Counted from the stretch's first letter, positions 7,026 to 36,915 are shown. The stretch is DNA of 64,000 nucleotides from Dictyostelium discoideum (GCA_000004695.1 CM000155.2:1504001-1568000), one strand, 5' to 3'. Notes: a model not told the origin generated them from the letters alone. A program made the numbers and translations.

Positions 7026-7060
<35 letters not shown>

Positions 7061-13222: not shown

Positions 13223-13372
13223 TTTTTTTTTTTTTTTTTACCTGTGATCAGACCTTCAAGGAATGTCCTTGTGTCTTTTCGGCGGTGTTTGTTTTTTTTT
13301 TTTTTTTTTTTTTTTTTTACCTGTGATCAGACCTTCAAGGAATGTCCTTGTGTCTTTTCGGCGGTGTTTGTT
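13223..13372. repeat. two direct copies of a 52-bp unit (acctgtgatcagaccttcaaggaatgtccttgtgtcttttcggcggtgtttg), each preceded by a poly-T run
   Basis: copies at 13240-13291 and 13319-13370; read on the minus strand each copy ends in poly(A), like extreme 3'-end fragments of poly(A) retroelements. Confidence 0.5.
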
Positions 13373-13463
13373 AAACGGTTTTATTTTTATTATTCAATTG
13401 TATTAAATTTTTTAAACTATATTATATCTTTCATTATAACTGAACATATATTAAAATTTATAT

Positions 13464-14745
13464 TTTTTTTTTTTTTTTTTTGATATAAATAAACTATTGT
13501 AGTATACAATTAGTATGTTATTTTTATTTATTTATTTTAGGTTTTTTAGTTTTTGTGAATTTAAAATGGTATGTTATTTTAGATTAGGTAATTAATAATT
13601 AATTGGTGGTGTAATTGTTGGAATTGGTTCATTTGTGTTTATGCTCCATTCTTTTTTAAATTTTTTGATGGTTTCAGACCATTGGGTTTCTTTTTGAGTT
13701 TTTGTGAAGTTGTTTTTAATTGAGTATTGGTTAAAGTTTGATAACGTTCTTGAATATTCCAATCTTATTAGCTTGTGCCATTTTGATTTTAATATATCAT
13801 AATCTAGTGTTGTGTTGTTTATTTGGTTGTTCCAATTATCAATTGATTGAGTTATATTGATGTCAAATAATGATTTGCATAACCATATCCATATTTGGTG
13901 AATAACTAATGAGATTATGTTCCAATATGCATGTGTTCTGACTAGATCAAGATTTGTGTTTATATAATTCCAGTTGAACCTGTATTTTTTATATTGTGCG
14001 TTTTCTGCAAAATGAAAATTAATATTGATAGTTGGATCTGGTTTAAATGCTTTGTTGTTTGTTTGTGGTTTATAAATGAGTGTGTATAATTTTGTTGTTT
14101 GGTTTTTTGTTAGTGACCAGTTTTTGTTTCCATTGCAATTTTTATATATAAAATATTTTAATTTGTCGTGGTTTATGAAGTTGATTGTGTGCTGACAATT
14201 GAAAAACAAATGACCATAGGGATCATTATTCATTTCATTGTTGCAAATGGGGCAAACTTTGTTGTGTAGATGATTAATCGGAAGACATCTAGCATGGAAT
14301 CTTTGCATTGTATCACGGCCTTTTGGATCTTTTAATTTTTGAATTTTGACAAATAGTTGGTCGTATGTGTATTTCCATAATAGTTGTATTGATTGTTGGT
14401 GCGAAGTAAGAAGTAGATCTGAATATTTCTTGCCAATATAGTCTTTTGATTTACATTGGTGATTGTTGAGTATTGTCGAGTAGATTTCTTTGAGTGTTGG
14501 TGGTAGTGGAATATTATTTGTGTTTAATGTTTGAGAGGTTTGATTTTTTATTAATATTGGTTGTAGGATTTGAACTTTATCTTTTAGATGTCCAATTTGA
14601 GTTGCATAGTTTTCCCATTCTTTTTTGATTTTTATAAGGTATGGAGAAGAGATTGATTTGTTGATGATTTGATCCATCCAACTTATCATGTATATTGAAT
14701 TATTTGCAGATTTATGCATTTGTAAAAATCTGTTGTATATCCAAA

Positions 14746-14747
<2 letters not shown>
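13464..14747 (-). mobile_element. 5'-truncated TRE3-like non-LTR retrotransposon fragment (ORF2 C-terminus + 3' UTR + poly(A))
   Basis: ORF 13592-14719 ends with KLKDPKGRDTMQRFHARCLPINHLHNKVCPICNNEMNNDPYGHLFFNC. This is homologous to, but diverged from, the C-terminal zinc-finger region of the ORF2 copies at 14919 and 20225. Poly-T (poly(A) on the minus strand) at 13464-13481. Confidence 0.55.
13592..14719 (-). pseudogene. ORF2 C-terminal fragment of the truncated TRE3-like element
   Basis: homology to the ORF2 C-terminus of the neighbouring elements; no RT core upstream. Confidence 0.5.
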
Positions 14748-14821
<74 letters not shown>

Positions 14822-14918
14822 TGGATTAACAAGATTGATATATGTCCATCTGTGTTAATACGAGTTTTATTTAATATTTATTTAAAGGCTTATCATTTAA
14901 GCTGAAGGGTTATTTTAA

Positions 14919-17900
14919 TCATATGAATTGATCAAAAGATATAATATTTGGGAGAGATGATTCTGGAATACAATAGTAATTAGCTGTAGTTTTTCTTAGC
15001 TTGATCGTTGAAGTGAGAAGGATCTTAGGATCTTTGAAGTTATTATGGTCTTTTGCTGATAAGTTTTTCAGATCTTTTGCTTTTTTGATGTATTCTAGAG
15101 TGGCCAATTTGTGCCATTTCTTTAGAAGGGAGCTGTATGATAGTGATTCATCTGTTAAAGGATCTTCACTGTATATTTGATTGCAAATCCAAATCCAAAT
15201 GTTGTGGAGGATAAGGGCCATTAGGTTTCTATATGCGAATGATCTGGTTAGATCATAGTCTATTGCTTTATAGTTCCATTCAAAGTATTCTTTGTGGAAT
15301 CTGTGGTTGGCGTAATCTGCATTCACTTCTTGATCTTTTTTGGCTGTCGGTGATAATTTTGGAGTTATTCTACTAATGAAATTGTTATTTTGCCTAATTC
15401 TTGTATGGTGCCAGTTTTTACCTTTGCCTGTGGTAATATAGATGAAATTTTTGAGTTTATTTATTTTTATGAATTGTTTTGTTTTCTTGCATGAGAAGAA
15501 CAGGTGACCGTATGGGTCTTTGCTCATATCTTCTTTGCAGAGTGGGCATTGTTTGTTGTGAAGGTAGTTTATTGGAAGGCATCTGGCATGGAATCTAAAC
15601 ATTGTATCTCTTGTTTTAGGGTCTTTTATCTTCAGTATGTTGTTGAAGAGTTGATTATAGCTGTAGCCTCTTAAGTTTAGAGATGATTGGAATTCCGTTT
15701 TAGGGATGGTTGGATTTTGGTCTTGAATTGTGGTATACCATTCTGCCAGTGAAAGTGGTTGTCCATTTTCGTTTTTTATGGATGTGAGATTATTGTTGAA
15801 GATTGCTTTTTTTATTCTTATTTTGTTCCATTCGTCTAAGTTTTCTTTTAGGTATCTGGATGTGAATTTGTTTTTTTGGATCTGATATTCCCAGCTTTTG
15901 TGATGAGATGAGTTTGTTTGTTTGGTTTCTAGTGCTAGGATGAACTGGTTTATGATCCAAAGTTTCTGCGCCAGTTGTCTCAATTCTATATTCCAAATGT
16001 TCCAGCCCCCTACTTTTAGTGGGTATCTTGCTCTTTTGGTTCTCATTAAATTAATAACTTGAAATCCACTAGCATTTTTGTTGTTTGGTGCCGATAAAAA
16101 CCATTCGACTAGTTTATTGATTTGGTTTAATTCCTCTTCCTTAAAGTTCTCTACATATGAATAGTAGGTTAATTTAGAGAGTGCGAATGCTTTGAGGATG
16201 TTGGTTTTGGTTTTGATTGTTGAGTCAGTGGTTTTCCATAGTACTAAGGATGATCTTATTGTGTTTAATATTTCTGGCATTTTTCTTGTTATCCCTTTGC
16301 CTGTGAAGAAGTATCCCAAGTATCTTTCTGGATTTGTAGATATTGGAATTCTTTGGTTGGTATTGTCTGGGTTGCCTATAAGAATTGATGAAGATTTGTC
16401 GATGTTTAGTTTTGAGGAAGTGGCTTTGCAAAATGAATTGAAGTGTTGTAGTACTAATTCAAGTTGTTGAGAGTCTGGGACCATTGAAGCCGAGTCGTCT
16501 GCAAAGCTTTGGAATTTCTCTCTGTGGTTGCTGTTGTTTAGAGGAAGGCCAGTAATTCGGTCATCTTGTAAAATTTTTCTAGCTAAAGCCTCTATTACAA
16601 GGACGAACAGGGTGGGTGATAGTGGATCTCCTTGTTTAACTCCTCTTTTGATCTCAAAGGGTATAGTAGTTCTACCATTAATTTCAATTCTTGCTTCAGA
16701 TTTGGTGAGTAGATTCATTATCAGGTTGATTATATTGGTTGGAATGTTGATGTGTTGTAGTGATCTAAGTATTGAACCGTGTGAGATCGAGTCAAAAGCT
16801 TTTTCGAAATCATATAGTGTAATTATTCCGTTAATTCTTTTATCATTACAATAGTTGATTAATTCGTTCATTGATATGATATTATCTAGAATGAATCTGC
16901 CTGGTACGAAACCTTTTTGATTGTGGTTGATCACTTTCGTTAGTATTGGGATTATTCTATTGTTTATTAGCTTTGAGTGGATTTTATATATACAATTAGC
17001 CAGTGTAATTGGTCTTCTGTTTTTGATTAGTTCGGGGTCTCCCTTTTTAGGTATCGTGATAATGAGGCCTTCTTTGTAATTTTTGCTAATTAGATGAGGA
17101 TTTCTTAGAGTGTCGTTGAATGCTGAGGCCAGTATTGGAGCTAGTTTTTCTTTGTGTGTTATGTAGAATAAGTTTGGAATTCCATCTGGACCTGGAGATT
17201 TGTGTGGGTTCAGTTGTTTTATTACTTCTAGGATCTCTTGTGAGGTGAATTCATTTTCAAGGTTGTCCCATGTTGAGTCCCTGGTCACTGTCCAATTTTC
17301 CAACATTTCGTAATGAGATGGTGGGTCATCTTCTTTGTAGTCATAAAGATTTGAGTAATATTTTACGTATTCTTCTTCGATCAATTCCTGTTTGTTAATT
17401 GTTCTACCTTGTGCATCTTTTACTGCGTTGATGGTGAAATCATTGTGTCTTTTCTTGATTCTCGCGGAGATGTACTTGAGTGAGGTTTCTTCGCAATAGT
17501 TGTTCAATTCTTGTTTAAGTTGTTCTTCTCTTTTTTTAGATTCATTTATTGCTGAAAGGGTTGCGAAGGCTTGGTCTTTAAATTCTGTCTCTAGTAGGGA
17601 GATTAGATTTTTGATGTTTGCCTTATTGTTGTAGTCGTTTTGTTTTTGAAATTCGGTGTATAGTTGTTTTATTTTGTTCAGTAAGCTGTTGAGTTGAGAG
17701 AAGGAAATAGAGTTATGGTTGGCTGACAGCTCCCTTGAATAATCGTTAAGTAGGAAGTCTATTTTCTTAAGCATTATGCTTGAGAGGATTGAGGATTTTT
17801 TTAATCTCCATCTGCGCTTGTTCATCTGTATGTTGGGTAGAGTGAAAGTGGTTGATAGGAAGTTGTGATCTGATAGAGGTATGTCGTTAATTTTTGGGGG

Positions 17901-18623
17901 GATTAGGTTCCTTAGGTATAATTGGCTGTAGTTGATTAAGCTATTGTTAAGGTATATTCAGTCTAGTCTCCTTTCCAAGATTCTTGTGAGGTTATTGTTT
18001 GTGTTGTGTATCGTTCTTGAGAAGGTGGGTCTTTTATTTAGTTGGTCCATATCCATTAGGTTATTTGAAATTCTGATGGCTTCGATTACTGTGGCCATCT
18101 CATCTGGGGATTGTGTTGTCAAGTTGCCTTGGTCATCATTTGATGTGTGATTGTCATTGAAGTCTAAACAGTTGAAGTCTCCTGCTATGATGTCGATGTT
18201 TTTATTAGGGTTAGACGTTAGGTTGTGGTATTGGTTGTTGAAGTGTTTGTTTAGTGTTGAAGCTAGTGTTTTTCTTTTATCAGGTTGGGCCGGGGCGTAT
18301 ATGGCCAAGATTCTCGTTGTGGTATCTTTTATTAGAATGTCTGATATTATTAGTCTACCTTCTATTATGAATATTGGTGAGAGTTTTATGTTTTGGTTGT
18401 TGTGGTTTAGTATTCCTATTCCGTTGCCTCTGTTGGTTGCGCTAATGATGGAGCCAGGGAATAGCTGGTGTGCTTGTGTTGCGTCGGCGTTGAGTTCATT
18501 GACTATGGTTAGTGCCAATGAGTTTGGGGGGGATTGGGATTTGATAAAGTCTGTTTTGTTTTTGAAGGAGGTGTCAGTGCCCCAACCTCTGACATTCCAT
18601 TGGTTGATTTTGATTACTACCAT
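14919..18623 (-). pseudogene. TRE3-like ORF2 (APE + RT + zinc finger), copy A, interrupted
   Basis: The APE ORF 17958-18623 and the RT ORF 14919-17825 are separated by a stop or frameshift in 17826-17957. Confidence 0.55.
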
Positions 18624-19882
18624 TATGAGATGATATCGATCTCCTCTTGGGAGTCGTATAGCTGCGGTTTGGATGGTGAAGGGTAGATACTCTCTATGAA
18701 GCTCTCAATGATTCCTTTACTTTCTTTTTTGACAGGTGTCTTAGGGGTGGATGGGATGTAAGGGTTGCTTCTATTTATTGTTGGTGAGAGTTGGGTGACT
18801 TCATTGTTTGAGTGGATTTCCTCGTTCTTGCGTTTATGTGATGGAGGGATGTTTAGTGTCTTCTCTCTGTTTTCCGAGGATGAATGGATGTTATTGCTCG
18901 TTTTGTTGGCATTGTCTTTTTGGATGGCGTTGGATGTTGTGGTAGTGGTTGTGGTGGGTTTGACAGATTGAGATTCTGCTGGGTTTTTGGGGGGAAGAGG
19001 TTGAGATGACTTTTTTGCTTGGGCTTTTTTCTCTTGGGGGTGATTGTTTTTCAGACTGATTGTTTGCTGGGGGTTGTTTGTTTGTTGTTGTGGTTTTGGT
19101 TGAGAGGATTTGATTGCTATCCTGTTTTGGATGTTGGGAGGATCATCTGTCATCTCATCTTCTAATGGTTCTTCCGTGTTGTTTGACTTCTCTACTTTCT
19201 TGTTTTTCTTTGNTGAGGAGTAGGTTTTGGTGGCCGTTCTGATGGTAAAGTTTGCGATTTCTGTAATGTGTTGGCCAGATTTCATTTGATCGCCTATTTT
19301 GCATTCTATTAGACCGAATACTATGAGGTGGTCGGTGGAGTATATAGTATTGTATATTGCATAGGGTATTTCTTCTGCAAAGGCAGTTTTGATGAGGGCG
19401 TCCACTATTCCTGCCTTTTCTCTGGGAATTCTTACTCTTCCTGTGAGGACGTGGAAGTCTCTACTGGAGGTGATGAAGGTTCCCAATTTGCTTCTATCTC
19501 TAATGATATTTAGGAGAGATTGTTCGTTTTTAATCATCAGGTGGATCATTTTTCTAGTTCCTTTGCCTATGTATATCTTGTCGAATGGGATATCGTAGTT
19601 TGAGAGTGTTTTTCTCATTTCTTCTAACCCCTTGAGATCCATTTTGGGGAATTCGAGTGTAATTGGGTAGAATCCGTTGTTCTTCTCATAGGTTGAGAGC
19701 GCAGTCATGTTCAATATGGTCTCGCAGTATTTGGAGATGTCTTTGAGGCCTATTGATAGTTTGGGGTAGGTCTCCTTTATCTCTGCTGTTTTTGTGGAGA
19801 ATTCCTTAATGAAGTTCTCCGATGCCTCGTCCATATGGGTGGAGGGGTTGGCCATTTTAGCCGCGTCTGCGTAGGAATTCAT
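18623..19882 (-). CDS. TRE3-like ORF1 (419 aa), copy A
   Basis: ORF with a basic/Q/T-rich C-terminal half. Contains one ambiguous base (n at 19212, giving X in the translation). Stop TAA overlaps the ORF2 ATG (TAATG) at 18621-18625. Confidence 0.6.
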   Translation of the reverse strand: MNSYADAAKMANPSTHMDEASENFIKEFSTKTAEIKETYPKLSIGLKDISKYCETILNMTALSTYEKNNGFYPITLEFPKMDLKGLEEMRKTLSNYDIPFDKIYIGKGTRKMIHLMIKNEQSLLNIIRDRSKLGTFITSSRDFHVLTGRVRIPREKAGIVDALIKTAFAEEIPYAIYNTIYSTDHLIVFGLIECKIGDQMKSGQHITEIANFTIRTATKTYSSXKKNKKVEKSNNTEEPLEDEMTDDPPNIQNRIAIKSSQPKPQQQTNNPQQTISLKNNHPQEKKAQAKKSSQPLPPKNPAESQSVKPTTTTTTTSNAIQKDNANKTSNNIHSSSENREKTLNIPPSHKRKNEEIHSNNEVTQLSPTINRSNPYIPSTPKTPVKKESKGIIESFIESIYPSPSKPQLYDSQEEIDIIS

Positions 19883-20082
19883 CTCGATGGGATTCCTTTG
19901 AATCGGCGATTTGGTATGTTAGATCTGTAGATCGTGGTGGATTGGTGATTTTTTTTGAAAGATTGGTTAAAATTGACCGAGATTAAAGATAGAAAAGGAT
20001 GAATTACTTTTCACGTGTATCTTGTATCCTCTTGATCGCGGTACGGTTTTTTTTTCCAAATCTTTTGAGCAACTTGTCGTAG

Positions 20083-20127
<45 letters not shown>

Positions 20128-20224
20128 TGGATTAACAAGATTGATATATGTCCATCTGTGTTAATACGAGTTTTATTTAATATTTATTTAAAGGCTTATC
20201 ATTTAAGCTGAAGGGTTATTTTAA

Positions 20225-23200
20225 TCATATGAATTGATCAAAAGATATAATATTTGGGAGAGATGATTCTGGAATACAATAGTAATTAGCTGTTGTTTTT
20301 CTTAGCTTGATCGTTGAAGTGAGAAGGATCTTAGGATCTTTGAAGTTATTATGGTCTTTTGCTGATAAGTTTTTCAGATCTTTTGCTTTTTTGATGTATT
20401 CTAGAGTGGCCAATTTGTGCCATTTCTTTAGAAGGGAGCTGTATGATAGTGATTCATCTGTTAAAGGATCTTCACTGTATATTTGATTGCAAATCCAAAT
20501 CCAAATGTTGTGGAGGATAAGGGCCATTAGGTTTCTATATGCGAATGATCTGGTTAGATCATAGTCTATTGCTTTATAGTTCCATTCAAAGTATTCTTTG
20601 TGGAATCTGTGGTTGGCGTAATCTGCATTCACTTCTTGATCTTTTTTGGCTGTCGGTGATAATTTTGGAGTTATTCTATTAATGAAATTGTTATTTTGCC
20701 TAATTCTTGTATGGTGCCAGTTTTTACCTTTGCCTGTGGTAATATAGATGAAATTTTTGAGTTTATTTATTTTTATGAATTGTTTTGTTTTCTTGCATGA
20801 GAAGAACAGGTGACCGTATGGGTCTTTGCTCATATCTTCTTTGCAGAGTGGGCATTGTTTGTTGTGAAGGTAGTTTATTGGAAGGCATCTGGCATGGAAT
20901 CTAAACATTGTGTCTCTTGTTTTAGGGTCTTTTATCTTCAGTATGTTGTTGAAGAGTTGATTATAGCTGTAGCCTCTTAAGTTTAGAGATGATTGGAATT
21001 CCGTTTTAGGGATGGTTGGATTTTGGTCTTGAATTGTGGTATACCATTCTGCCAGTGAAAGTGGTTGTCCATTTTCGTTTTTTATGGATGTGAGATTATT
21101 GTTGAAGATTGCTTTTTTTATTCTTATTTTGTTCCATTCATCTAAGTTTTCTTTTAGGTATCTGGATGTGAATTTGTTTTTTTGGATCTGATATTCCCAG
21201 CTTTTGTGATGAGATGAGTTTGTTTGTTTGGTTTCTAGTGCTAGGATGAACTGGTTTATGATCCAAAGTTTCTGCGCCAGTTGTCTCAATTCTATATTCC
21301 AAATGTTCCAGCCCCCTACTTTTAGTGGGTATCTTGCTCTTTTGGTTCTCATTAAATTAATAACTTGAAATCCACTAGCATTTTTGTTGTTTGGTGCCGA
21401 TAAAAACCATTCGACTAATTTATTGATTTGGTTTAATTCCTCTTCCTTAAAGTTCTCTACATATGAATAGTAGGTTAATTTAGAGAGTGCGAATGCTTTG
21501 AGGATGTTGGTTTTGGTTTTGATTGTTGAGTCAGTGGTTTTCCATAGTACTAAGGATGATCTTATTGTGTTTAATATTTCTGGTATTTTTCTTGTTATCC
21601 CTTTGCCTGTGAAGAAGTATCCCAAGTATCTTTCTGGATTTGTAGATATTGGTATTCTTTGGTTGGTATTGTCTGGGTTGCCTATAAGAATTGATGAAGA
21701 TTTGTCGATGTTTAGTTTTGAGGAAGTGGCTTTGCAAAATGAATTGAAGTGTTGTAGTACTAATTCAAGTTGTTGAGAGTCTGGGACCATTGAAGCCGAG
21801 TCGTCTGCAAAGCTTTGGAATTTCTCTCTGTGGTCGCTGTTGTTTAGAGGAAGGCCAGTAATTCGGTCATCTTGTAAAATTTTTCTAGCTAAAGCCTCTA
21901 TTACAAGGACGAACAGGGTGGGTGATAGTGGATCTCCTTGTTTGACTCCTCTTTTGATCTCAAAGGGTATAGTAGTTCTACCATTAATTTCAATTCTTGC
22001 TTCAGATTTGGTGAGTAGATTCATTATCAGGTTGATTATATTGGTTGGAATGTTGATGTGTTGTAGTGATCTGAGTATTGAACCGTGTGAAATCGAGTCA
22101 AAAGCTTTTTCGAAATCATATAGTGTAATTATTCCGTTAATTCTTTTATCATTACAATAGTTGATTAATTCGTTCATTGATATGATATTATCTATAATGA
22201 ATCTGCCTGGTACGAAACCTTTTTGATTGTGGTTGATCACTTTCGTTAGTATTGGGATTATTCTATTGTTTATTAGTTTTGAGTGGATTTTATATATACA
22301 GTTAGCCAGTGTAATTGGTCTTCTGTTTTTGATTAGTTCGGGGTCTCCCTTTTTAGGTATCGTGATAATGAGGCCTTCTTTGTAATTTTTGCTAATTAGA
22401 TGAGGATTTCTTAGAGTGTCGTTGAATGCTGAGGCCAGTATTGGAGCTAGTTTTTCTTTGTGTGTTATGTAGAATAAGTTTGGAATTCCATCTGGGCCTG
22501 GAGATTTGTGTGGGTTCAATTGTTTTATTACTTCTAGGATCTCTTGTGTTGTGAATTCATTTTCAAGGTTGTCCCATGTTGAGTCCCTGGTCACTGTCCA
22601 ATTTTCCAACATTTCATAATGAGATGGTGCGTCATCTTCTTTGTAGTCATAAAGATTTGAGTAATATTTTACGTATTCTTCTTCGATCAATTCCTGTTTG
22701 TTGATTGTTCTACCTTGTGCATCTTTTACTGCGTTGATGGTGAAATCATTGTGTCTTTTCTTGATTCTCGCGGAGATGTACTTGAGTGAAGTTCTTCGCA
22801 ATAGTGTTCATGTTCAATTCTTGTTTAAGTTGTTCTTCTCTTTTTTTAGATTCATTTATTGCTGAAAGGGTTGCGAAGGCTTGGTCTTTAAATTCTGTCT
22901 CTAGTAGGGAGATTAGATTTTTGATGTTTGCCTTATTGTTGTAGTCATTTTGTTTTTGAAATTCTGTGTATAGTTGTTTTATTTTGTTTAGTAAGCTGTT
23001 GAGTTGAGAGAAGGAAATAGAGTTATGGTTGGATGACAGCTCCCTTGAATAATCGTTAAGTAGGAAGTCTATTTTCTTAAGCATTATGCTTGAGAGGATT
23101 GAGGATTTTTTTAATCTCCATCTGCGCTTGTTCATCTGTATGTTGGGTAGAGTGAAGGTGGTTGATAGGAAGTTGTGATCTGATAGAGGTATGTCATTAA

Positions 23201-23828
23201 TTTTTGGGGGGATTAGGTTCCTTAAGTATAATTGGCTGTAGTTGATTATGCTATTGTTAAGGTATATTCTGTCTAGTCTCCTTTCCAAGATTCTTGTGAG
23301 GTTATTGTTTGTGTTGTGTATCGTTCTTGAGAAGGTGGGTCTTTTATTTAGTTGGTCCATATCCATTAGGTTATTTGAAATTCTGATGGCTTCGATTACT
23401 GTGGCCATCTCATCTGGGGATTGTGTTGTCAAGTTGCCTTGGTCATCATTTGATGTGTGATTGTCATTGAAGTCTAAACAATTGAAGTCGCCTGCTATGA
23501 TGTCGATGTTTTTTTTAGGGTTAGACGTTAGGTTGTGGTATTGGTTGTTGAAGTGTTTGTTTAGTGTTGAAGCTAGTATTTTTCTTTTATCAGGTTGGGC
23601 CGGGGCGTATATGGCCAAGATTCTCGTTGTGGTATCTTTTATTAGAATGTCTGATATTATTAGTCTACCTTCTATTATGAATATTGGTGAGAGTTTTATG
23701 TTTTGGTTGTTGTGGTTTAGTATTCCTATTCCGTTGCCTCTGTTGGTTGCGCTAATGATGGAGCCAGGAAATAGCTGGTGTGCTTGTGTTGCGTCGGCGT
23801 TGAGTTCATTGACTATGGTTAGTGCCAA
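20225..23828 (-). pseudogene. TRE3-like ORF2, copy B, frameshifted
   Basis: The APE ORF 22746-23828 and the RT ORF 20225-22801 overlap out of frame. A 5-bp insertion (tcgat, about 23924-23928) near the ORF1/ORF2 junction is absent from copy A. Confidence 0.55.
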
Positions 23829-23936
23829 TGAGTTTGGGGGGGATTGGGATTTGATAAAGTCTGTTTTGTTTTTGAAGGAGGTGTCAGTGCCCCAACCTCT
23901 GACATTCCATTGGTTGATTTTGATCGATTACTACCA

Positions 23937-25190
23937 TTATGAGATGATATCGATCTCCTCTTGGGAGTCGTTTAGCTGCGGTTTGGATGGTGAAGGGTAG
24001 ATACTCTCTATGAAGCTCTCAATGATTCCTTTCCTTTCTTTATTGACAGGTGTCTTAGGGGTGGATGGGATGTAAGGGTTGCTTCTGTTTATTGTTGGTG
24101 AGAGTTGGGTGACCTCGTTGTTTGAGTGGATTTCCTCGTTCTTGCGTTTATGTGATGGAGGGATGTTTGGTGTCTTCTCTCTGTTTTCCGAGGATGAATG
24201 GATGTTAGTGCTCGTTTTGTTGGCATTGTCTTTTTGGATGGCGTTGGATGTTGTGGTAGTGGTTGTGGTGGGTTTGACAGATTGAGATTCTGCTTGGTTT
24301 TTGGGGGGAAGAGGTTGAGAGGATTTTTTTGATTGGGCTCTTTTCTCTTGGGTTGATTGTTTATCAGACTTATTGTTTGCTGGGTTGTTTGTTTGTTGTT
24401 GTGGTTTTGGTTGAGAGGATTTGATTGCTATCCTGTTTTGGATGTTGGGAGGATCATCTGTCATCTCATCTTCTAATGGTTCTTCCGTGTTGTTTGACTC
24501 TACTTTCTTATTTTTCTTTTGTGAGGAGTAGGTTTTGGTGGCCGTTCTGATGGTAAAGTTGGCGATTTCTGTATTGTGTTGGCCAGATTTCATTTGATCG
24601 CCTATTTTGCATTCTATTAGACCGAATACTAGGAGGTGGTCGGTGGAGTATATAGTATGGTATATTGCATAGGGTATTTCTTCTGCAAAGGCAGTTTTGA
24701 TGAGGGCATCCACTATTCCTGCCTTTTCTCTTGGAATTCTTACTCTTCCTGTGAGGACGTGGTAGTCTCTACTGGAGGTGATGAAGGTTCCCAATTTGCT
24801 TCTATCTCTAATGATATTTAGGAGAGATTGTTCGTTTTTAATCATCAGGTGGATCGTTTTTCTAGTTCCTTTGCCTATGTATATCTTGTCGATTGGGATA
24901 TCGTAGTTTGAGAGTGTTTTTCTCATTTCTTCTAACCCCATGAGATCCATTTTGGGGAATTCGAGTGTAATTGGGTAGAATCCGTTGTTTTTCTCGTAGG
25001 TTGAGAGAGCAGTCATGTTCAATATGGTCTCGCAGTATTTGGAGATGTCTTTGAGGCCTATTGATAATTTGGGGTAGGTCTCCTTTATCTCTGCTGTTTT
25101 TGTGGAGAATTCCTTAATGAAGTTCTCTGATGCCTCGTCCATATGGGTGGAGGGGTTGGCCATTTTAGCCGCGTCTGCGTAGGAATTCAT
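23937..25190 (-). CDS. TRE3-like ORF1 (417 aa), copy B
   Basis: 97-98% identical to copy A ORF1 at protein level. Confidence 0.6.
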   Translation of the reverse strand: MNSYADAAKMANPSTHMDEASENFIKEFSTKTAEIKETYPKLSIGLKDISKYCETILNMTALSTYEKNNGFYPITLEFPKMDLMGLEEMRKTLSNYDIPIDKIYIGKGTRKTIHLMIKNEQSLLNIIRDRSKLGTFITSSRDYHVLTGRVRIPREKAGIVDALIKTAFAEEIPYAIYHTIYSTDHLLVFGLIECKIGDQMKSGQHNTEIANFTIRTATKTYSSQKKNKKVESNNTEEPLEDEMTDDPPNIQNRIAIKSSQPKPQQQTNNPANNKSDKQSTQEKRAQSKKSSQPLPPKNQAESQSVKPTTTTTTTSNAIQKDNANKTSTNIHSSSENREKTPNIPPSHKRKNEEIHSNNEVTQLSPTINRSNPYIPSTPKTPVNKERKGIIESFIESIYPSPSKPQLNDSQEEIDIIS

Positions 25191-25427
25191 CTCGATGGGA
25201 TTCCTTTGAATCGGCGATTTGGTAAATTAGATCTGTAGATCGTGGTGGATTGGTGATTTTTTTTGAAAGATTGGTTAAAATTGACCGAGATTAAGGATAG
25301 AAAAGGATGAATTACTTTTCACGTGTATCTTGTATCCTCTTGATCGCGGTGCGGTTTTTTTTTCCGTAGTTGTATATTCCACATACCTAAAATTTATAAA
25401 TTATAACTATAAAATTTACATAAAAAA

Positions 25428-25500
25428 TGGAGAAGAAGGGTATCGATCCCTTTACCTCTCGCATGCTAAGCGAGCGCTCTACCATCTGAGCTACATCCCC
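25428..25500 (-). tRNA. tRNA-Ala (anticodon AGC)
   Basis: Minus-strand sequence GGGGATGTAGCTCAGATGGTAGAGCGCTCGCTTAGCATGCGAGAGGTAAAGGGATCGATACCCTTCTTCTCCA. It has an A box TAGCTCAGATGG, an anticodon loop CTTAGCATG and the G3:U70 Ala identity pair. The B box GGGATCGATACC is slightly atypical. TRE elements on both flanks argue for an active Pol III gene. Confidence 0.8.
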
Positions 25501-25540
25501 TTTGATGAAAATGAAATGAAAGTCGTATAGAAACTTCTGT

Positions 25541-26216
25541 GAAATGAGATCGAAAAAAACAAACAACAACAACAATCTCTTTTTTTGATTATTTCATTTT
25601 TCATATAAAAAAGACTTAAAAAACAAATAAATAAATAAATAAACTATTTTAAAAAGCCATCTTTTTACTTTATTGTAATTTATTATTTGTTTCGTTTTGA
25701 GAATTTTGCGTAGCAAAATTTTCAAAAAAAAAGCAAAAAATAATCAGATCGAAAAAAACAAACAACAACAACAATCTCTTTTTTTGATTATTTCATTTTT
25801 CATATAAAAAAGACTTAAAAAACAAATAAATAAATAAATAAACTATTTTAAAAAGCCATCTTTTTACTTTATTGTAATTTATTATTTGTTTCGTTTTGAG
25901 AATTTTGCGTAGCAAAATTTTCAAAAAAAAAGCAAAAAATAATCAGATCGAAAAAAACAAACAACAACAACAATCTCTTTTTTTGATTATTTCATTTTTC
26001 ATATAAAAAAGACTTAAAAAACAAATAAATAAATAAATAAACTATTTTAAAAAGCCATCTTTTTACTTTATTGTAATTTATTATTTGTTTCGTTTTGAGA
26101 ATTTTGCGTAGCAAAATTTTCAAAAAAAAAGCAAAAAATAATCAGATCGAAAAAAACAAACAACAACAACAATCTCTTTTTTTGATTATTTCATTTTTCA
26201 TATAAAAAAGACTTAN

Positions 26217-26269
<53 letters not shown>

Positions 26270-26929
26270 CGGGGAACCAAGTTAATTAAAAAATTTCCAA
26301 ATTTTTAACTTTTTAAGGAAAATTAAAAAGGATGGAAGGAAATTAAATGGAAATTCCCAACCACCCCCCCAAATATTAGGCAACCCAATGGCCTACAAAA
26401 AATAAGCAAATTTGGGGATAAAACTCATTTAAAAAAAAAACAATTCAAATACGTCTTAAACTTCATTCCCGAACCCGGCGATAAAATAAAAAAAGATTTA
26501 AAAAAAAGTTTGGCCAAAAAAAATGTTTTAATCAAAAAGCCCCTGTAAAAAAAAAAAAAAAAATAAAATGGGGTTTAGCATTTCAAGGAGAAGCAAAAAA
26601 AAATTGCGTTATCCCATTCCAAAAAAAAAAAAAATATATAATTTTTATCCCATAAAAAAAAAAAAAAAAAAAAAAAAAAGGTAAACCAACCCCTCTTTTA
26701 GAGACCCTGTAAAAAAAATAAAATAAAATAAAATGAGATCTAGCATCTCAAGGAGAAGCAAATAATAATTGCGTTATCCAATTCAAAAAAAAAAAATATA
26801 TATAATTTTACAATTACATTCAAGAAAAATCTGGAGGATCCAGAATCAATTGGGGAATAGAAATATTCAACAGACTAGACATTCCATAAACAGCCAACGC
26901 CATAGCCATTATTTGCGAAAACATCTGGA
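25541..26929 (+). mobile_element. TRE5-A-derived block 1: A-module tandem array (about 3.4 copies) + poly(A) + degenerate internally deleted TRE5-A copy
   Basis: Begins about 45 bp upstream of the tRNA-Ala 5' end, divergent orientation. 198-bp A-module units at 25549-26215. Region 26263-26929 is an error-rich copy of 30105-30730. Confidence 0.6.
25549..26215 (+). repeat. TRE5-A A-module tandem repeat, period 198 bp, about 3.4 copies
   Basis: unit atcagatcgaaaaaaacaaacaacaacaacaatctc…gcaaaaaataatc repeats at 25745, 25943, 26141. Confidence 0.8.
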
Positions 26930-27029: not shown

Positions 27030-28280
27030 AACAACCATCAACAACGATCTCTTTGTTTGATTATTTCATTTTTCATATAAAAAAGACTTAAAAAACAAAT
27101 AAATAAATAAATAACTATTTTAAAAAGCCATCTTTTTACTTTATTGTAATTTATTATTGGTTTCGTTTTGAGAATTTTGCGTAGCAAAATTTTCAAAAAA
27201 AAAGCAAAAAATAATCAGATCGAAAAAAACAAACAACAACAACAATCTCTTTTTTTGATTATTTCATTTTTCATATAAAAAAGACTTAAAAAACAAATAA
27301 ATAAATAAATAAACTATTTTAAAAAGCCATCTTTTTACTTTATTGTAATTTATTATTTGTTTCGTTTTGAGAATTTTGCGTAGCAAAATTTTCAAAAAAA
27401 AAGCAAAAAATAATCAGATCGAAAAAAACAAACAACAACAACAATCTCTTTTTTTGATTATTTCATTTTTCATATAAAAAAGACTTAAAAAACAAATAAA
27501 TAAATAAATAAACTATTTTAAAAAGCCATCTTTTTACTTTATTGTAATTTATTATTTGTTTCGTTTTGAGAATTTTGCGTAGCAAAATTTTCAAAAAAAA
27601 AGCAAAAAATAATCAGATCGAAAAAAACAAACAACAACAACAATCTCTTTTTTTGATTATTTCATTTTTCATATAAAAAAGACTTAAAAAACAAATAAAT
27701 AAATAAATAAACTATTTTAAAAAGCCATCTTTTTACTTTATTGTAATTTATTATTTGTTTCGTTTTGAGAATTTTGCGTAGCAAAATTTTCAAAAAAAAA
27801 GCAAAAAATAATCAGATCGAAAAAAACAAACAACAACAACAATCTCTTTTTTTGATTATTTCATTTTTCATATAAAAAAGACTTAAAAAACAAATAAATA
27901 AATAAATAAACTATTTTAAAAAGCCATCTTTTTACTTTATTGTAATTTATTATTTGTTTCGTTTTGAGAATTTTGCGTAGCAAAATTTTCAAAAAAAAAG
28001 CAAAAAATAATCAGATCGAAAAAAACAAACAACAACAACAATCTCTTTTTTTGATTATTTCATTTTTCATATAAAAAAGACTTAAAAAACAAATAAATAA
28101 ATAAATAAACTATTTTAAAAAGCCATCTTTTTACTTTATTGTAATTTATTATTTGTTTCGTTTTGAGAATTTTGCGTAGCAAAATTTTCAAAAAAAAAGC
28201 AAAAAATAATCAGATCGAAAAAAAACAAACAACAACAACAATCTCTTTTTTTGATTATTTCATTTTTCATATAAAAAAGG

Positions 28281-28290
<10 letters not shown>
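27030..28290 (+). repeat. TRE5-A A-module tandem repeat, period 198 bp, about 6.4 copies
   Basis: unit starts at 27215, 27413, 27611, 27809, 28007, 28205. Confidence 0.8.
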
Positions 28291-28341
<51 letters not shown>

Positions 28342-28416
28342 GGAACCAAGTTAATTAGAAAATTTCCAGATTTTTAACTTTTTAAAGAAAAATAAAAAAG
28401 ATAGAAAGAAAATAAA

Positions 28417-29751
28417 ATGAAAATCACAAACAACACCACAAATATTAAGCAACACAAATGCCTACAAAAAATAAGCGAAATTGTGGATAAAACTCAATTA
28501 AAAAAAAAACAATTCAAATACGTCATAAACATCAATCACGAACCAGACGATAAAATAAAAAAAGATTTAGAAAAAAGTTTGGACAAAAAAGATGTTTTAA
28601 TCAAAAGTAATAATACATTCAAAATTCTCACAGACAGTATTAGTACAGTAATCTATTTTGTAAATATGTTTGATGCAGAATTAAAAGGACAATTTATAAC
28701 CACTATAAGACCAAAAAATATGTATACAGATTTTGATTGGTATAAATCACTCACAGAAATAGAATGGGTAATAGAAAATGAAGGATGTAAACTAATTAAA
28801 TCAGAAATTAAAGGCGAAACTCTAATTATCAAAACAGTGAAAAGAGTCGTAGAAGAATTTGACACTATCATTGAACTAGACAATCTAACATTAATTGGAC
28901 ACTCCAACAAAGGATGGAGAGATCAAACCTCATTACCAGAAAATCAAGAAGAAAACAAAAATAAAAAACAATCAGATGAACAACAACCACAATCTACATC
29001 AGAACAAATACCAAAACAAGGAAAAAGAACAATCATTATCCCACCAATCACATCCTCATCTAATGATAAAACATTTATGGCCCTAGATGATACAGCTCAA
29101 AAGGTAATAGAAGCATCACTAGAAAACGTAGATGAACTAACAAGAATAGAGAATGAGATCAATACACAATCGATAAACAATCAAGAAATTAAAACAAAAT
29201 CAGAAAAACCTATCGAACCACCATCTCCATACAATACACCAATAAAACAACACGGCGAAACAAAGGGACTAACAACGGAAGAAAAACTTAGAGAGGCAAA
29301 TGATATCTTCGACTTCACCAGCCCAAACACTGATGCAATAAGAAAAATAGAATTCCCACTTTCAATCCCTTCAAATCAATGGTTCTTCTCCTCTCCAATA
29401 AAACATATCATGAGTTTCAGCCCAACCTATGGTACACCATCGAAAATTATCGATTCACCAAGTAAATTGTTAAACACACCAAAAAAGAAACAACAAGACA
29501 AAACAAACAAGACCAACAAAACACCAGTCAAACCAAAATTGGGTGAATATGGACAAAAAAGCATAAAAACAAAAATGGATGAAGATATAGACAACTTCAA
29601 CAAGGAAATTCTAAAACAAATCAATAAATCAAAAAACCCCACAAACACACAAGACCAACAACACAACGAACAAAGTAAAGATCAGTTAGAAGACAAAATA
29701 AACCAGAAACTTCAAAAGGTAGATAAAAATCTACCCCAAATAAAACTATAA
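28417..29751 (+). CDS. TRE5-A ORF1 protein (444 aa)
   Basis: Complete ORF MKITNNTTNIKQHK… directly downstream of the A/B modules. The first 62 codons recur at 30149 and, in degraded form, at 26340 and 31200. Confidence 0.65.
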   Translation: MKITNNTTNIKQHKCLQKISEIVDKTQLKKKQFKYVININHEPDDKIKKDLEKSLDKKDVLIKSNNTFKILTDSISTVIYFVNMFDAELKGQFITTIRPKNMYTDFDWYKSLTEIEWVIENEGCKLIKSEIKGETLIIKTVKRVVEEFDTIIELDNLTLIGHSNKGWRDQTSLPENQEENKNKKQSDEQQPQSTSEQIPKQGKRTIIIPPITSSSNDKTFMALDDTAQKVIEASLENVDELTRIENEINTQSINNQEIKTKSEKPIEPPSPYNTPIKQHGETKGLTTEEKLREANDIFDFTSPNTDAIRKIEFPLSIPSNQWFFSSPIKHIMSFSPTYGTPSKIIDSPSKLLNTPKKKQQDKTNKTNKTPVKPKLGEYGQKSIKTKMDEDIDNFNKEILKQINKSKNPTNTQDQQHNEQSKDQLEDKINQKLQKVDKNLPQIKL

Positions 29752-29759
29752 AGAAAAAC

Positions 29760-30003
29760 ACAATAAGAATAGGTGTTTGGAACGTCCAAGGATCCAACAC
29801 CATCCAATCTGCCAGCATAATAAACACCGTTTTAGACAACAACAAGCTGGACGCAGCACTTCTAACTGAAACAAATATAAAAACAAATAAAATTTACTCA
29901 ATAAATCAACAATATAAAAACAAAATAACACACCACGCACCAATTGATAAAACAGGACAAGGGGTGTCACAAATCATCATCAACACCCGCAATAGAACTT
30001 CCT
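29760..30003 (+). pseudogene. TRE5-A ORF2 N-terminal (APE) fragment, truncated
   Basis: …IRIGVWNVQGSNTIQSASIINTVLDNNKLDAALLTETNIK… ends after about 80 codons, followed by the 3' tail and poly(A). Confidence 0.5.
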
Positions 30004-30047
30004 AAACATCTCAAAAAATACAATAATTCACTCAGTACTTTCTATAA

Positions 30048-30104
<57 letters not shown>

Positions 30105-30107
<3 letters not shown>

Positions 30108-31032
30108 CAAGTTAATCAGAAAAATAAAAAAGATAGAAAGAAAATAAAATGAAAATCACAAACAACACCACAAATATTAAGCAACACAAATGCCTACAAA
30201 AAATAAGCGAAATTGTGGATAAAACTCAATTAAAAAAAAAACAATTCAAATACGTCATAAACATCAATCACGAACCAGACGATAAAATAAAAAAAGATTT
30301 AGAAAAAAGTTTGGACAAAAAAGATGTTTTAATCAAAAAGACCCTGTAAAAAAAAAAAAAAAAATAAAATGAGATCTAGCATCTCAAGGAGAAGCAAATA
30401 ATAATTGCGTTATCCAATTCAAAAAAAAAAAAATATATATAATTTTAATCCAATAAAAAAAAAAAAAAAAAAAAAAAAAAGGTAAACCAACCCCTCTTTT
30501 AGAGACCCTGTAAAAAAAATAAAATAAAATAAAATGAGATCTAGCATCTCAAGGAGAAGCAAATAATAATTGCGTTATCCAATTCAAAAAAAAAAAATAT
30601 ATATAATTTTACAATTACATTCAAGAAAAATCTGGAGGATCCAGAATCAATTGGGGAATAGAAATATTCAACAGACTAGACATTCCATAAACAGCCAACG
30701 CCATAGCCATTATTTGCGAAAACATCTGGAGAGGAAGAAACAAGAAAATCCACGAAGGAATAACACTCAAAAACTTAAGAAAACAACTACTAGTACACGA
30801 ACTAAAGAAAACTCAAACAGCAGCTTGGGAAAGAACAAAAAACAACATATACAAACTAATCAGACAAGAAAAAAAAGCAACCAACAACGAACAAATAAAA
30901 AAATTCAAAAACATCATCTCCCTACAACTCGAAAGATTTAGCAAACACTGGAACTCACCACTACACACAGTAGCACTACCATCAAACCTCAACAAATATA
31001 TTACGTCTCTAAATACACTCTACACCCCCCAA

Positions 31033-31075
<43 letters not shown>
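30105..31075 (+). mobile_element. internally deleted TRE5-A derivative (ORF1 codons 1-62 fused to the ORF2 3' end/C-module) + poly(A)
   Basis: 30149-30349 is identical to the start of ORF1. 30570-31035 is the ORF2 C-terminal coding region ending …LNTLYTPQL, followed by (A)40. Confidence 0.55.
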
Positions 31076-31078
<3 letters not shown>

Positions 31079-31099
31079 ATACAACCTTAAAAGGCACTT

Positions 31100-31371
31100 G
31101 TAATATACAATAAAATTAATAAAATGAGATATATCTCAAGAAGAAGCAACTAAAAATTGCGTTATTCTATTCAAAAAAAAAATATATATAATTTTAATGC
31201 CTACAAAAAATAAGCGAAATTGTGGATAAAACTCAATTAAAAAAAAAACAATTCAAATACGTCATAAACATCAATCACTAACCATACGATAAAATAAAAA
31301 AAGATTTAGAAAAAAGTTTGGACAAAAAAGATGTTTTAATCAAAAGTTATAATACAATTCAAAATTCGAAA

Positions 31372-31416
<45 letters not shown>

Positions 31417-31560
31417 TAAACCAACCCCTCTTTTAGAGACCCTGTAAAAAAAAAAAAAAAAATAAAATGAGATCTAGCATCTCAAGGAGAAGCAAATAAT
31501 AATTGCGTTATCCAATTCAAAAAAAAAAAAATATATATAATTTTTTTTTATAAACAAATA
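31100..31560 (+). mobile_element. further short TRE5-A-derived fragments (ORF1-start-like and internal motifs with poly(A) runs)
   Basis: diverged copies of the 30150-30350 and 30340-30440 motifs. Confidence 0.4.

Positions 31561-35145: not shown

Positions 35146-35244
<99 letters not shown>

Positions 35245-36817: not shown

Positions 36818-36915
<98 letters not shown>

What the first reader, a model, noticed from the sequence alone, without database searches (positions are those of the whole stretch)
13223..31560. tRNA-Ala gene acting as a landing pad for two different non-LTR retrotransposon families on opposite flanks
A single tRNA-Ala(AGC) gene (25428-25500, minus strand) has a TRE5-A-type element starting about 45 bp upstream of its 5' end, in divergent orientation, with the A-module adjacent to the tRNA. 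It also has three successive TRE3-like insertions starting about 50 bp downstream of its 3' end, in the same orientation. This matches the position-specific Pol III-directed targeting described for Dictyostelium TRE5 and TRE3 elements, and here both classes sit at one gene. The order of copies gives a relative chronology: the copy nearest the tRNA is youngest and the 5'-truncated copy at 13.5-14.7 kb is oldest.
Basis: partly seen in the sequence, partly recalled or inferred. Interest (0 to 1): 0.55.

Follow-up and report, generated by a model that had tools for sequence, protein, structure and literature searches.

The report
Retrotransposon pile-up at a Dictyostelium tRNA gene
A Dictyostelium discoideum alanine tRNA gene has TRE5-A retrotransposon sequence 46 bp upstream and four nested or stacked TRE3 retrotransposon insertions 40-85 bp downstream, which is the well-documented tRNA-gene targeting of these elements, so the finding is real but ordinary.

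Summary
The core observation holds. tRNA-Ala(AGC) lies at 25428-25500 (minus strand). A TRE5-A A-module array starts 46 bp upstream, head-to-head. TRE3 elements lie downstream in the tRNA's orientation.

Several details need correcting.
- The downstream side holds four insertions from three TRE3 families, each with its own target-site duplication.
- The two full-length copies are inserted inside the 5'-truncated copy. That nesting proves the truncated copy is older than both.
- A 100-N assembly gap sits at 26930-27029. Sequence from about 26318 to 31544 carries the target-site duplication of a different gene, tRNA-Gly(GCC). In a long-read assembly of the same strain lineage, that gene lies about 380 kb away in inverted orientation. 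Only 25547 to about 26300 of the TRE5-A material is securely tied to tRNA-Ala.

Fourteen other loci from the same species show the same distances and orientations.

The phenomenon is textbook. Published counts give 61% of D. discoideum tRNA genes with a TRE and 13% with both TRE5 and TRE3. This is already known and of low interest. The only mildly new points are the nesting and a possible misjoin or TRE5-A-mediated inversion at the gap.

The parts
25428..25500 (-). tRNA-Ala(AGC) gene, the Pol III target. A T6 terminator follows at 25422-25427.
   Evidence: ARAGORN. Rfam RF00005, 58.1 bits, E=1.8e-10. Sequence read.
20088..25364 (-). TRE3-A-like copy 1, full length. Body 20123-25364 is 5242 nt and poly(A) is 20088-22 (35 A). 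ORF1 is 23937-25190. ORF2 is split at about 22750-22800. It inserted 63 nt after the tRNA 3' end. Its TSD TACAACTACG lies at 25365-25374 and 20078-20087.
   Evidence: (RVT_1 E=7.7e-34; Exo_endo_phos E=8.9e-4). It differs from the consensus of near-identical copies at other loci by 9 substitutions.
14748..20056 (-). TRE3-A-like copy 2, full length, with poly(A) 14748-14816 (69 A). ORF1 is 18623-19882 and ORF2 fragments are 17958-18623 and 14919-17825. It inserted 85 nt after the tRNA in coordinates before copy 1 arrived. Its TSD (AAAA)GATTTGG lies at 20056-20062 and 14741-14747.
   Evidence: RVT_1 E=7.3e-34; 100% identity to D. discoideum proteins. It differs from the consensus by 80 substitutions.
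13463..14747 (-). TRE3-B-like copy 3, main piece. It is 5'-truncated, holds the ORF2 C-terminus and 3' UTR, and has poly(A) at 13463-13481. Its other two pieces are 20056-20087 and 25365-25387. It inserted 40 nt after the tRNA. Its TSD TATAAATTTTA lies at 25388-25398 and 13452-13462.
   Evidence: Excising copies 1 and 2 with one copy of each TSD restores one 397-aa ORF. That ORF is 99% identical to residues 879-1275 of P0010 (DDB_G0291958). The same 3' end is seen in L016.
25365..25387 (-). The 5'-most piece of copy 3 (GGTATGTGGAATATACAACTACG, encoding GMWNIQLR). It was separated from the rest of copy 3 by the insertion of copy 1.
20056..20087 (-). The middle piece of copy 3 (TACAACTACGACAAGTTGCTCAAAAGATTTGG), lying between copy 1 and copy 2.
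   Evidence: The same junction is present in long-read locus L009.
13223..13427 (-). Fourth insertion: only the terminal module of a third TRE3-type family ('X'). The module is 13319-13427, followed by A27, a repeat of its last 52 nt (13240-13291) and A17. Its TSD AGTTATAAT(G/A)AAAG lies at 13428-13441 and 13210-13223. The site was 64 nt after the tRNA before any insertion.
   Evidence: The same module ends full ORF2-bearing elements in L011 and L012. That ORF2 is 59% identical to P0015.
25534..25546 (+). Target site CTTCTGTGAAATG, immediately 5' of the TRE5-A array. It is the TRE5-A TSD of the tRNA-Ala locus.
   Evidence: The same 12-13 nt flank two TRE5-A 3' ends next to the unique flank in L009.
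25547..26267 (+). TRE5-A 5' end: 3.4 tandem 199-bp A-modules (25547-26216) and an A51 tract. It starts 46 bp upstream of the tRNA 5' end, head-to-head.
26268..26929 (+). B-module, then a truncated C-module, a solo C-module and the start of a TRE5-C-like tail, running to the contig end. It carries the tRNA-Gly-locus TSD (ATATATATAATTTT at 26796). It is low quality and probably a chimeric contig end.
26930..27029 (.). Assembly gap of 100 N.
27030..30446 (+). TRE5-A.2, the non-autonomous form. Layout: at least 6.4 A-modules, A53, B-module, ORF1 28417-29751 (444 aa), ORF2 remnants, A56, 3' B-module, truncated C-module and TSD ATATATATAATTTT. In the long-read assembly this element sits 47 bp upstream of tRNA-Gly(GCC).
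   Evidence: The structure matches the published AB-ORF1-BC layout (PMC3159450).
30447..31544 (+). Three older 5'-truncated TRE5 insertions at the same target site, each ending in the TSD ATATATATAATTTT (at 30597, 31182 and 31531). They are a solo C-module, a TRE5-C-like ORF2 tail with a diverged C-module, and a TRE5-A partial B-module plus C-module.

Best explanation
The window comes from Dictyostelium discoideum. The tRNA-Ala(AGC) gene has been hit repeatedly by the species' tRNA-gene-targeted non-LTR retrotransposons (TREs).

Upstream side. TRE5-A integrated 46 bp from the mature 5' end with its own 5' end, the A-module promoter array, facing the gene. It duplicated CTTCTGTGAAAT(G).

Downstream side. 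Four TRE3-type elements integrated in the gene's orientation, in this order:
1. A stub of a third TRE3 family, 64 nt after the tRNA end.
2. A 5'-truncated TRE3-B-like copy, 40 nt after the tRNA end.
3. A full-length TRE3-A-like copy, 85 nt after the tRNA end.
4. A second full-length TRE3-A-like copy, 63 nt after the tRNA end.
The last two landed inside the TRE3-B-like copy, because it then occupied the preferred window.

What is shown here: the element identities at family level, all boundaries, four pairs of target-site duplications, the nesting, and the same geometry at other loci.

What is inferred from published work: integration by target-primed reverse transcription guided by the Pol III complex. 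For TRE5-A this involves ORF1 binding TFIIIB and a dependence on the B box. The factor for TRE3 is unknown.

The order of the stub relative to the TRE3-B-like copy, and of copy 2 relative to copy 1, rests on the distance rule plus sequence divergence, not on nesting.

The TRE5 array to the right of the gap belongs to a separate cluster. It is a stack of 3-4 insertions at one site upstream of a tRNA-Gly(GCC) gene that the window does not contain.
For: Species and families:
- ORF2 is 100% identical to D. discoideum proteins.
- Pfam gives RVT_1 at E=7e-34.
- The 444-aa TRE5-A ORF1 is identical to many genomic copies.

Structure:
- The A, B and C modules, ORF1 size and the ORF2 deletion match the published TRE5-A.1 and TRE5-A.2 descriptions (PMC3159450).

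Target-site duplications and nesting:
- All four TSD pairs were located.
- Removing copies 1 and 2 restores a 397-aa ORF that is 99% identical to the P0010 C-terminus.

Position rule in the same species:
- TRE3-A-like 5' ends lie 61-157 nt after same-strand tRNA genes at 5 other loci (L001=L014 proximal, a second L014 site, L011, L012, L015).
- A TRE3-B-like copy lies 48 nt after tRNA-Lys in L016.
- TRE5-A arrays start 41-57 nt before opposite-strand tRNA genes at 8 other loci.
- L001 holds an independent tandem pair behind an intron-containing tRNA gene, with its own TSDs TAAGAGATCA and TAATGCATAA.

Relative age:
- The proximal copy has 9 substitutions from the consensus and the distal copy has 80. 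L001 shows the same pattern, 0 against 81.

Literature:
- TRE5 inserts about 47+/-3 bp upstream in opposite orientation, and TRE3 inserts 40-150 bp downstream in the same orientation (PMC5911963, PMC5391098).
- 13% of tRNA genes carry both (PMC5006619).

The tRNA-Ala link to TRE5-A is independently supported. L009 carries the same TRE3 junction and the same CTTCTGTGAAAT duplication at two TRE5-A 3' ends.
Against: - No reference TRE sequences were available. Family names rest on published structural descriptions, element lengths (5242 and 5296 nt against published 5229 and 5279) and copy numbers. The A and B labels could be swapped.
- The 3' end and 3' TSD of the TRE5-A element at tRNA-Ala are not in the window, because of the gap and the chimeric contig end.
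- The L009 counterpart lacks the tRNA-Ala itself. It also lacks 8 nt (TACAACTA) of the distal copy-1 TSD. This could be strain or assembly differences, but it is unexplained.
- The selection of comparison loci biases the consensus used for the age estimate. They were chosen for having an ORF1 identical to copy 1.
- No external B box was found in the reconstructed downstream flank, so which box guided the TRE3 insertions is unknown.
Confidence: 0.92

Rival explanations
1. The two full-length TRE3 copies are one insertion that was later duplicated in tandem, by unequal crossing-over or replication slippage, rather than two independent retrotranspositions.
For: The copies are adjacent, in the same orientation and 98.3% identical.
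Against: - Each copy has its own poly(A) tail of different length, 35 against 69 A.
- Each has its own TSD cut from different positions of copy 3: TACAACTACG and GATTTGG.
- Of the 80 sites where copy 2 differs from the consensus, 62 are shared with the distal copy at the unrelated locus L001. The two window copies therefore come from different source lineages.
Confidence: 0.02
2. The whole arrangement is an assembly artefact of repeated DNA, and the tRNA gene is not really flanked by both element classes.
For: There is a 100-N gap, single Ns and low-quality bases. The contig end at 26318-26929 carries the TSD of another locus. The long-read assembly places the right-hand part about 380 kb away.
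Against: - The critical 183 nt is contiguous unique sequence, running from the TRE3-A 5' end at 25364 through the tRNA to the A-module at 25547.
- Its two unique flanks are independently tied to the same locus in L009, through the copy-3 junction and the CTTCTGTGAAAT duplication.
- So the artefact is limited to about 26318 onward.
Confidence: 0.04
3. The elements accumulated here by chance or by general preference for gene-poor, AT-rich DNA, and the tRNA gene is incidental.
For: The surrounding DNA is about 20% GC and intergenic.
Against: - Five separate integration events fall at 40-85 nt downstream or 46 nt upstream, all in the orientation the families always show.
- The same geometry recurs at 14 other tRNA genes of different anticodons.
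- It also appears in published genome-wide and experimental data (PMC5006619, PMC5391098).
Confidence: 0.01

Closest known systems
TRE5-A (formerly DRE), including the non-autonomous TRE5-A.2, of D. discoideum
   Same: - A tandem A-module of about 200 bp, a B-module holding the ORF1 start, a 444-aa ORF1 (about 51 kDa), a duplicated 3' B-module and a C-module of about 134 bp.
- A large ORF2 deletion and a B/C junction deletion in the .2 form.
- Integration 46-47 bp upstream of a tRNA gene, with the 5' end facing the gene, plus TSDs (PMC3159450, PMC5391098).
   Different: Nothing essential differs. At tRNA-Ala only the A array and the start of B are securely placed. A-module copy number varies from 1.5 to 21.5 units between loci.
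TRE3-A, TRE3-B and TRE3-C/D of D. discoideum
   Same: - Two ORFs, with ORF2 carrying endonuclease, reverse transcriptase and a Cys/His motif, and a poly(A) tail.
- Integration 40-85 nt downstream of the tRNA gene in the same orientation, with TSDs of 7-14 bp.
- Lengths of 5242 and 5296 nt against published 5229 and 5279 nt (PMC5006619, PMC5911963).
   Different: [quoted passage not shown] Here two TRE3-A-like copies sit inside a TRE3-B-like copy. This follows simply from the broad TRE3 window and the close (40 nt) position of the first copy. Subfamily labels were not verified against reference sequences.
Yeast Ty3 (and Ty1): Pol III-directed integration upstream of tRNA genes
   Same: Both use the Pol III transcription complex (TFIIIB/TFIIIC) on tRNA genes as a safe-haven landmark, and the same gene is hit repeatedly (PMC5911963).
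   Different: The yeast elements are LTR retrotransposons that use integrase. They do not integrate downstream of tRNA genes, and their distances differ.
DGLT-A and Skipper-2, tRNA-associated LTR elements of Dictyostelium
   Same: Both are associated with tRNA genes in the same genome. DGLT-A lies 13-33 bp upstream and Skipper-2 lies 8-23 bp downstream (PMC5006619).
   Different: They are LTR elements with integrase. None is present at this locus.

Membership tests
TRE5-A | 5' UTR made of one or more ~200-bp A-modules followed by a ~290-bp B-module that contains the ORF1 start | tested here: met
   A 199-bp unit is present as 3.4 copies at 25547-26216 and 6.4 copies at 27030-28284. The B-module starts at 26268 and at 28338, with the ORF1 ATG at 28417. 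Module sizes come from PMC3159450.
TRE5-A | 3' UTR made of a duplicated B-module plus a 134-137-bp C-module and an oligo(A) tail. The .2 form has a large ORF2 deletion and a B/C junction deletion. | tested here: met
   Met for the element at 27030-30446 and for the canonical TRE5-A.1 copy in L004. For the element attached to tRNA-Ala, the 3' end is not reliably in the window.
TRE5-A | Integration about 47+/-3 bp upstream of a tRNA gene, with the element's 5' end facing the tRNA 5' end | tested here: met
   The distance is 46 bp at tRNA-Ala, in divergent orientation. It is 41-57 bp at 8 other loci.
TRE5-A | Sequence identity to the reference TRE5-A (DRE) record | not testable with these tools
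   No reference nucleotide record was accessible. The ORF1 is identical to a protein annotated only as 'hypothetical' in AX4.
TRE3 (A/B/C/D) | Non-LTR element with two ORFs, ORF2 carrying APE endonuclease, RT and a zinc-finger-like motif, and a poly(A) tail | tested here: met
   RVT_1 scores E=7e-34. Exo_endo_phos is weak at E=8.9e-4, below the Pfam cut-off, but relatives P0008-P0010 carry PF03372. The CPxC...H...C motif was seen by eye. Poly(A) tails are 35 and 69 nt.
TRE3 (A/B/C/D) | Integration about 40-150 bp downstream of a tRNA gene in the same transcriptional orientation | tested here: met
   The sites are 40, 63, 64 and 85 nt after the tRNA end, all on the minus strand like the tRNA. 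The distances are 48-157 nt at 6 other loci.
TRE3 (A/B/C/D) | Target-site duplications flanking each insertion | tested here: met
   Four TSD pairs of 7-14 nt were located.
TRE3-A versus TRE3-B subfamily label | Match to the subfamily consensus (5229 bp for A, 5279 bp for B) | tested here: inconclusive
   Bodies of 5242 nt (copies 1 and 2) and 5296 nt (a P0010-type copy in L016) keep the published ~50-nt difference and order (PMC5006619). The P0001 type is also the more abundant. No sequence comparison with the references was possible.
TRE5-C (piece at 30611-31181) | TRE5-type ORF2 with a C-module about 78% identical to that of TRE5-A. TRE5-B lacks a C-module. | tested here: inconclusive
   By eye, the ORF2 tail is clearly homologous to TRE5-A.1 ORF2 but much diverged; no identity was computed. 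The C-like module is 81% identical. The criterion comes from PMC3159450. There was no reference sequence.

The most novel reading that the evidence does not exclude
The join across the 100-N gap may be real rather than a scaffolding error. In that case ectopic recombination between two inverted TRE5-A.2 copies, one at tRNA-Ala and one at tRNA-Gly about 380 kb away, has inverted a chromosome segment in one laboratory lineage of D. discoideum. That would leave a hybrid TRE5-A with the tRNA-Ala target-site duplication at its 5' end and the tRNA-Gly duplication at its 3' end. The deletion of the tRNA-Ala gene seen in the long-read assembly (L009) would then be a second TRE-associated rearrangement at the same spot.
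Probability: 0.25. Interest if true: 0.35.

Novelty: already known. Interest (0 to 1): 0.12.

Why it matters
As a finding it matters little. It is a clean example of a targeting system described since 1989, and both-sided occupancy is already published at 13% of tRNA genes.

Its practical value is as an annotation correction.
- It gives exact boundaries and target-site duplications for five or more insertion events.
- It shows that TRE3 elements can nest inside each other.
- It flags a likely chimeric contig end and a questionable scaffold join in the reference sequence.

If the join were real, it would be an example of TRE-mediated large-scale rearrangement between closely related laboratory strains.

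Tried and rejected
- Exact-protein look-ups of three neighbouring host ORFs (32171-35548, 12335-12856, 36532-37908) found nothing, probably because the genes have introns.
- The look-up of P0010 found no encoding contig.
- I first read the A-run at 13463-13481 as internal to the copy-3 3' UTR, because a BLAST alignment to L001 ran through it. L016 and the motif scan showed it is the true poly(A) of copy 3, and that the sequence beyond it is host spacer plus a separate mini-insertion.
- I considered 'GTTATAAT' at 25400-25407 as the copy-3 TSD and rejected it. TATAAATTTTA abuts both ends of copy 3, and AGTTATAAT belongs to the fourth insertion.
- I tried to learn what lies next to the ribonucleotide reductase flank in the AX4 reference, in order to decide between misjoin and inversion.
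- Glöckner 2001 (PMC311061) and the genome paper (PMC1352341) are not held.
- Source names gave no TRE subfamily labels. There were only 'hypothetical protein' entries and one 'pol' entry, AAD43057.1, in the P0010 cluster.

Full report
**Source and observation.** The window is about 20% GC outside the elements. The reverse-transcriptase ORF at 14919-17825 is 100% identical to Dictyostelium discoideum proteins, so the source is D. discoideum. ARAGORN finds a single tRNA in the 64 kb: tRNA-Ala(AGC) at 25428-25500 on the minus strand. Rfam confirms it at 58 bits against a 29-bit threshold. It is followed by TTTTTT.

**Downstream (minus-strand) side.**
- Self-comparison shows two elements of about 5.24 kb, at 14782-20057 and 20088-25365, which are 98.3% identical.
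- Each has an ORF1 of 417-419 aa and a split ORF2 with RVT_1 at E=7e-34. Each ends in its own poly(A), 69 and 35 A.
- Reading the junctions showed that the short stretches between the elements are not host DNA.
- Joining 25365-25387, 20056-20087 and 13463-14747, and removing one copy each of TACAACTACG and GATTTGG, gives a single 397-aa ORF. That ORF is 99% identical to the C-terminus of P0010 (DDB_G0291958, a 1275-aa ORF2), which is only 39% identical to the ORF2 of the two full-length copies.
- So a 5'-truncated element of a second family inserted first, 40 nt after the tRNA end. Its TSD TATAAATTTTA lies at 25388-25398 and 13452-13462.
- The two full-length copies then inserted into it, at 85 nt and 63 nt after the tRNA, each making its own TSD.
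- Beyond the poly(A) of that truncated copy lie 10 nt of host spacer and a fourth insertion at 13223-13427. This is only the terminal ~109-nt module of a third family, with its last 52 nt and poly(A) repeated. It is flanked by AGTTATAAT(G/A)AAAG.
- The same module terminates ORF2-bearing elements in loci L011 and L012. That ORF2 is 59% identical to P0015 and about 34% identical to the other two families.

**Chronology.**
- Nesting proves that the truncated copy predates both full-length copies.
- The order of the two full-length copies is inferred. If the proximal one had come first, the distal site would have been 5.3 kb from the tRNA.
- Divergence agrees with this order. The proximal copy differs from the consensus of near-identical copies at other loci by 9 substitutions, and the distal copy by 80. 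An unrelated locus, L001, shows the same contrast: 0 for its proximal copy and 81 for its distal copy.
- The comparison set was selected through copy 1's ORF1, which biases the consensus. However, the two distal copies also differ from each other far more than the proximal-type copies differ among themselves.

**Upstream (plus-strand) side.**
- A 199-bp tandem array starts at 25547, 46 bp from the tRNA 5' end, and reads away from the gene. It is preceded by CTTCTGTGAAATG.
- An A51 tract and a B-module follow.
- Sequence from 26268 looks like low-quality reads. A 100-N gap lies at 26930-27029.
- Right of the gap lies a complete TRE5-A.2. Its layout is A-modules, B-module, a 444-aa ORF1, ORF2 remnants, poly(A), B-module and a truncated C-module. 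This matches the published AB-ORF1-BC structure with the B/C junction deletion (PMC3159450).
- Three 5'-truncated TRE5 pieces follow it.
- Every junction in that stack carries ATATATATAATTTT, at 30433, 30597, 31182 and 31531. The same motif also occurs at 26796, on the left side of the gap.

**Comparison with a long-read assembly.** Exact-protein look-ups retrieved loci from GCA_054883475.1.
- L008 equals window 27030-37961. Its unique flank has zero substitutions over 6.4 kb, so it is the same strain lineage.
- In L008 the TRE5-A.2 array starts 47 bp upstream of a tRNA-Gly(GCC) gene, preceded by ATATATATAATTTT. Unique genes lie to its left, and no TRE3 is present.
- L009 is on the same contig, about 380 kb away and in the opposite orientation. 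It matches window 16171-24081, including the copy-3-derived junction. It then continues into TRE5-A sequence whose two 3' ends are each followed by CTTCTGTGAAAT and a ribonucleotide reductase flank.
- The tRNA-Ala target-site duplication is therefore linked to a different flank than the one in the window. Everything in the window from about 26318 to 31544 carries the tRNA-Gly signature.
- Either the reference contig end is chimeric through the repeated B-module and the scaffold join is wrong, or a TRE5-A-mediated inversion separates the two lineages. I could not decide between these.
- L009 also lacks the tRNA-Ala gene, the 5' 1.3 kb of copy 1 and the A array. They are replaced by about 20 nt of inverted B-module sequence.

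**Is the geometry more than chance?** Other loci of the same species give the same pattern.
- 5' ends of the same TRE3 family lie 61, 82, 100, 104 and 157 nt after same-strand tRNA genes.
- The second family lies 48 nt after a tRNA-Lys gene.
- TRE5-A arrays start 41-57 nt before opposite-strand tRNA genes at eight loci.
- The copies without a nearby tRNA are mostly the outer members of tandems; the exceptions are L013, L009 and L010.
- L001 holds an independent proximal/distal pair with its own TSDs.

**What is known.**
- The literature describes exactly this behaviour. TRE5 elements lie about 47+/-3 bp upstream with their 5' end facing the tRNA gene. TRE3 elements lie 40-150 bp downstream in the same orientation (PMC3159450, PMC5391098, PMC5911963).
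- 61% of D. discoideum tRNA genes carry a TRE and 13% carry both classes (PMC5006619).
[quoted passage not shown] The nesting seen here is a small departure from that. It follows directly from the broad TRE3 window.
- The mechanism is inferred from those papers and not shown here. It is target-primed reverse transcription guided by the Pol III complex, with TRE5-A ORF1 binding TFIIIB and dependence on the B box.
- Subfamily labels are probable but unverified: copies 1 and 2 as TRE3-A, copy 3 as TRE3-B. They rest on element lengths (5242 and 5296 nt against published 5229 and 5279) and on abundance.

**Verdict.** The finding is real and its interpretation is essentially right, but it is an ordinary, already described phenomenon. 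The useful output is a corrected map: four TRE3 insertions with nesting, exact TSDs, and a warning that the TRE5 material beyond about 26.3 kb belongs to another tRNA gene's cluster across a doubtful assembly join.

Noticed in passing
window 26268-27029: There is a 100-N assembly gap. The contig end to its left is low quality and carries the target-site duplication of a different locus (ATATATATAATTTT at 26796). In long-read assembly GCA_054883475.1 the two sides of the gap lie about 380 kb apart and inverted on contig JBTAPE010000034.1 (L009 at 1.557-1.575 Mb and L008 at 1.175-1.193 Mb).
   Followed up: partly
window 30433-31544; L008 9996-10924: The same 14-nt target site, ATATATATAATTTT, is duplicated at every junction of a stack of TRE5 insertions upstream of tRNA-Gly(GCC). 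The window has one more unit than L008: a solo C-module at 30447-30596, 164 bp. This is either an insertion or duplication polymorphism or an assembly collapse.
   Followed up: partly
L009 7878-7921: In the long-read assembly, the tRNA-Ala gene, the 5' 1.3 kb of TRE3 copy 1 and the A-module array are missing. About 20 nt of inverted B-module sequence (GGCATTTGTGTTGCTTAAT) replaces them. The distal copy-1 TSD there also lacks TACAACTA (L009, about 3900).
   Followed up: partly
L016 8177-8205; L011 20668-20696; L001 1201-1227; L012 19571-19600; L010 10441-10465: Tiny units of about 14-16 nt (CACCGCTTTTAGGT) followed by poly(A) recur at five loci. At L016 the unit is flanked by its own duplication (GTATTACCAAAA). 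They look like an internally deleted form of the terminal module of the third TRE3-type family, retroposed on its own.
   Followed up: no
window 13223-13330: The last 52 nt plus poly(A) of the fourth insertion are present twice in tandem, as a 79-bp repeat. In L001 and L012 the unit is single. This may reflect a template jump during reverse transcription or a second, minimal insertion.
   Followed up: partly
L007 3628-7905 and other loci: A-module copy number at the 5' end of TRE5-A varies from 1.5 to 21.5 units between loci of one genome.
   Followed up: no
L010 4126-10003: At a second locus a TRE5-A.2 abuts an internally truncated TRE3-A-like copy, at the position equivalent to window 23541, with no tRNA gene between them. 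This resembles the L009 arrangement.
   Followed up: no
window about 6090-7120: A stretch of about 800 bp is 97.6% identical to sequence next to integrase-coding genes in L013. It is probably a fragment of another mobile element, unrelated to the finding.
   Followed up: no
L016 2828-2841: A B-box-like GGTTCAAATCC lies between the upstream TSD copy and the 5' end of a TRE3-B-like element, downstream of tRNA-Lys. It is absent from the downstream TSD side, so it reads as extra 5' nucleotides rather than an external B box of the target.
   Followed up: no
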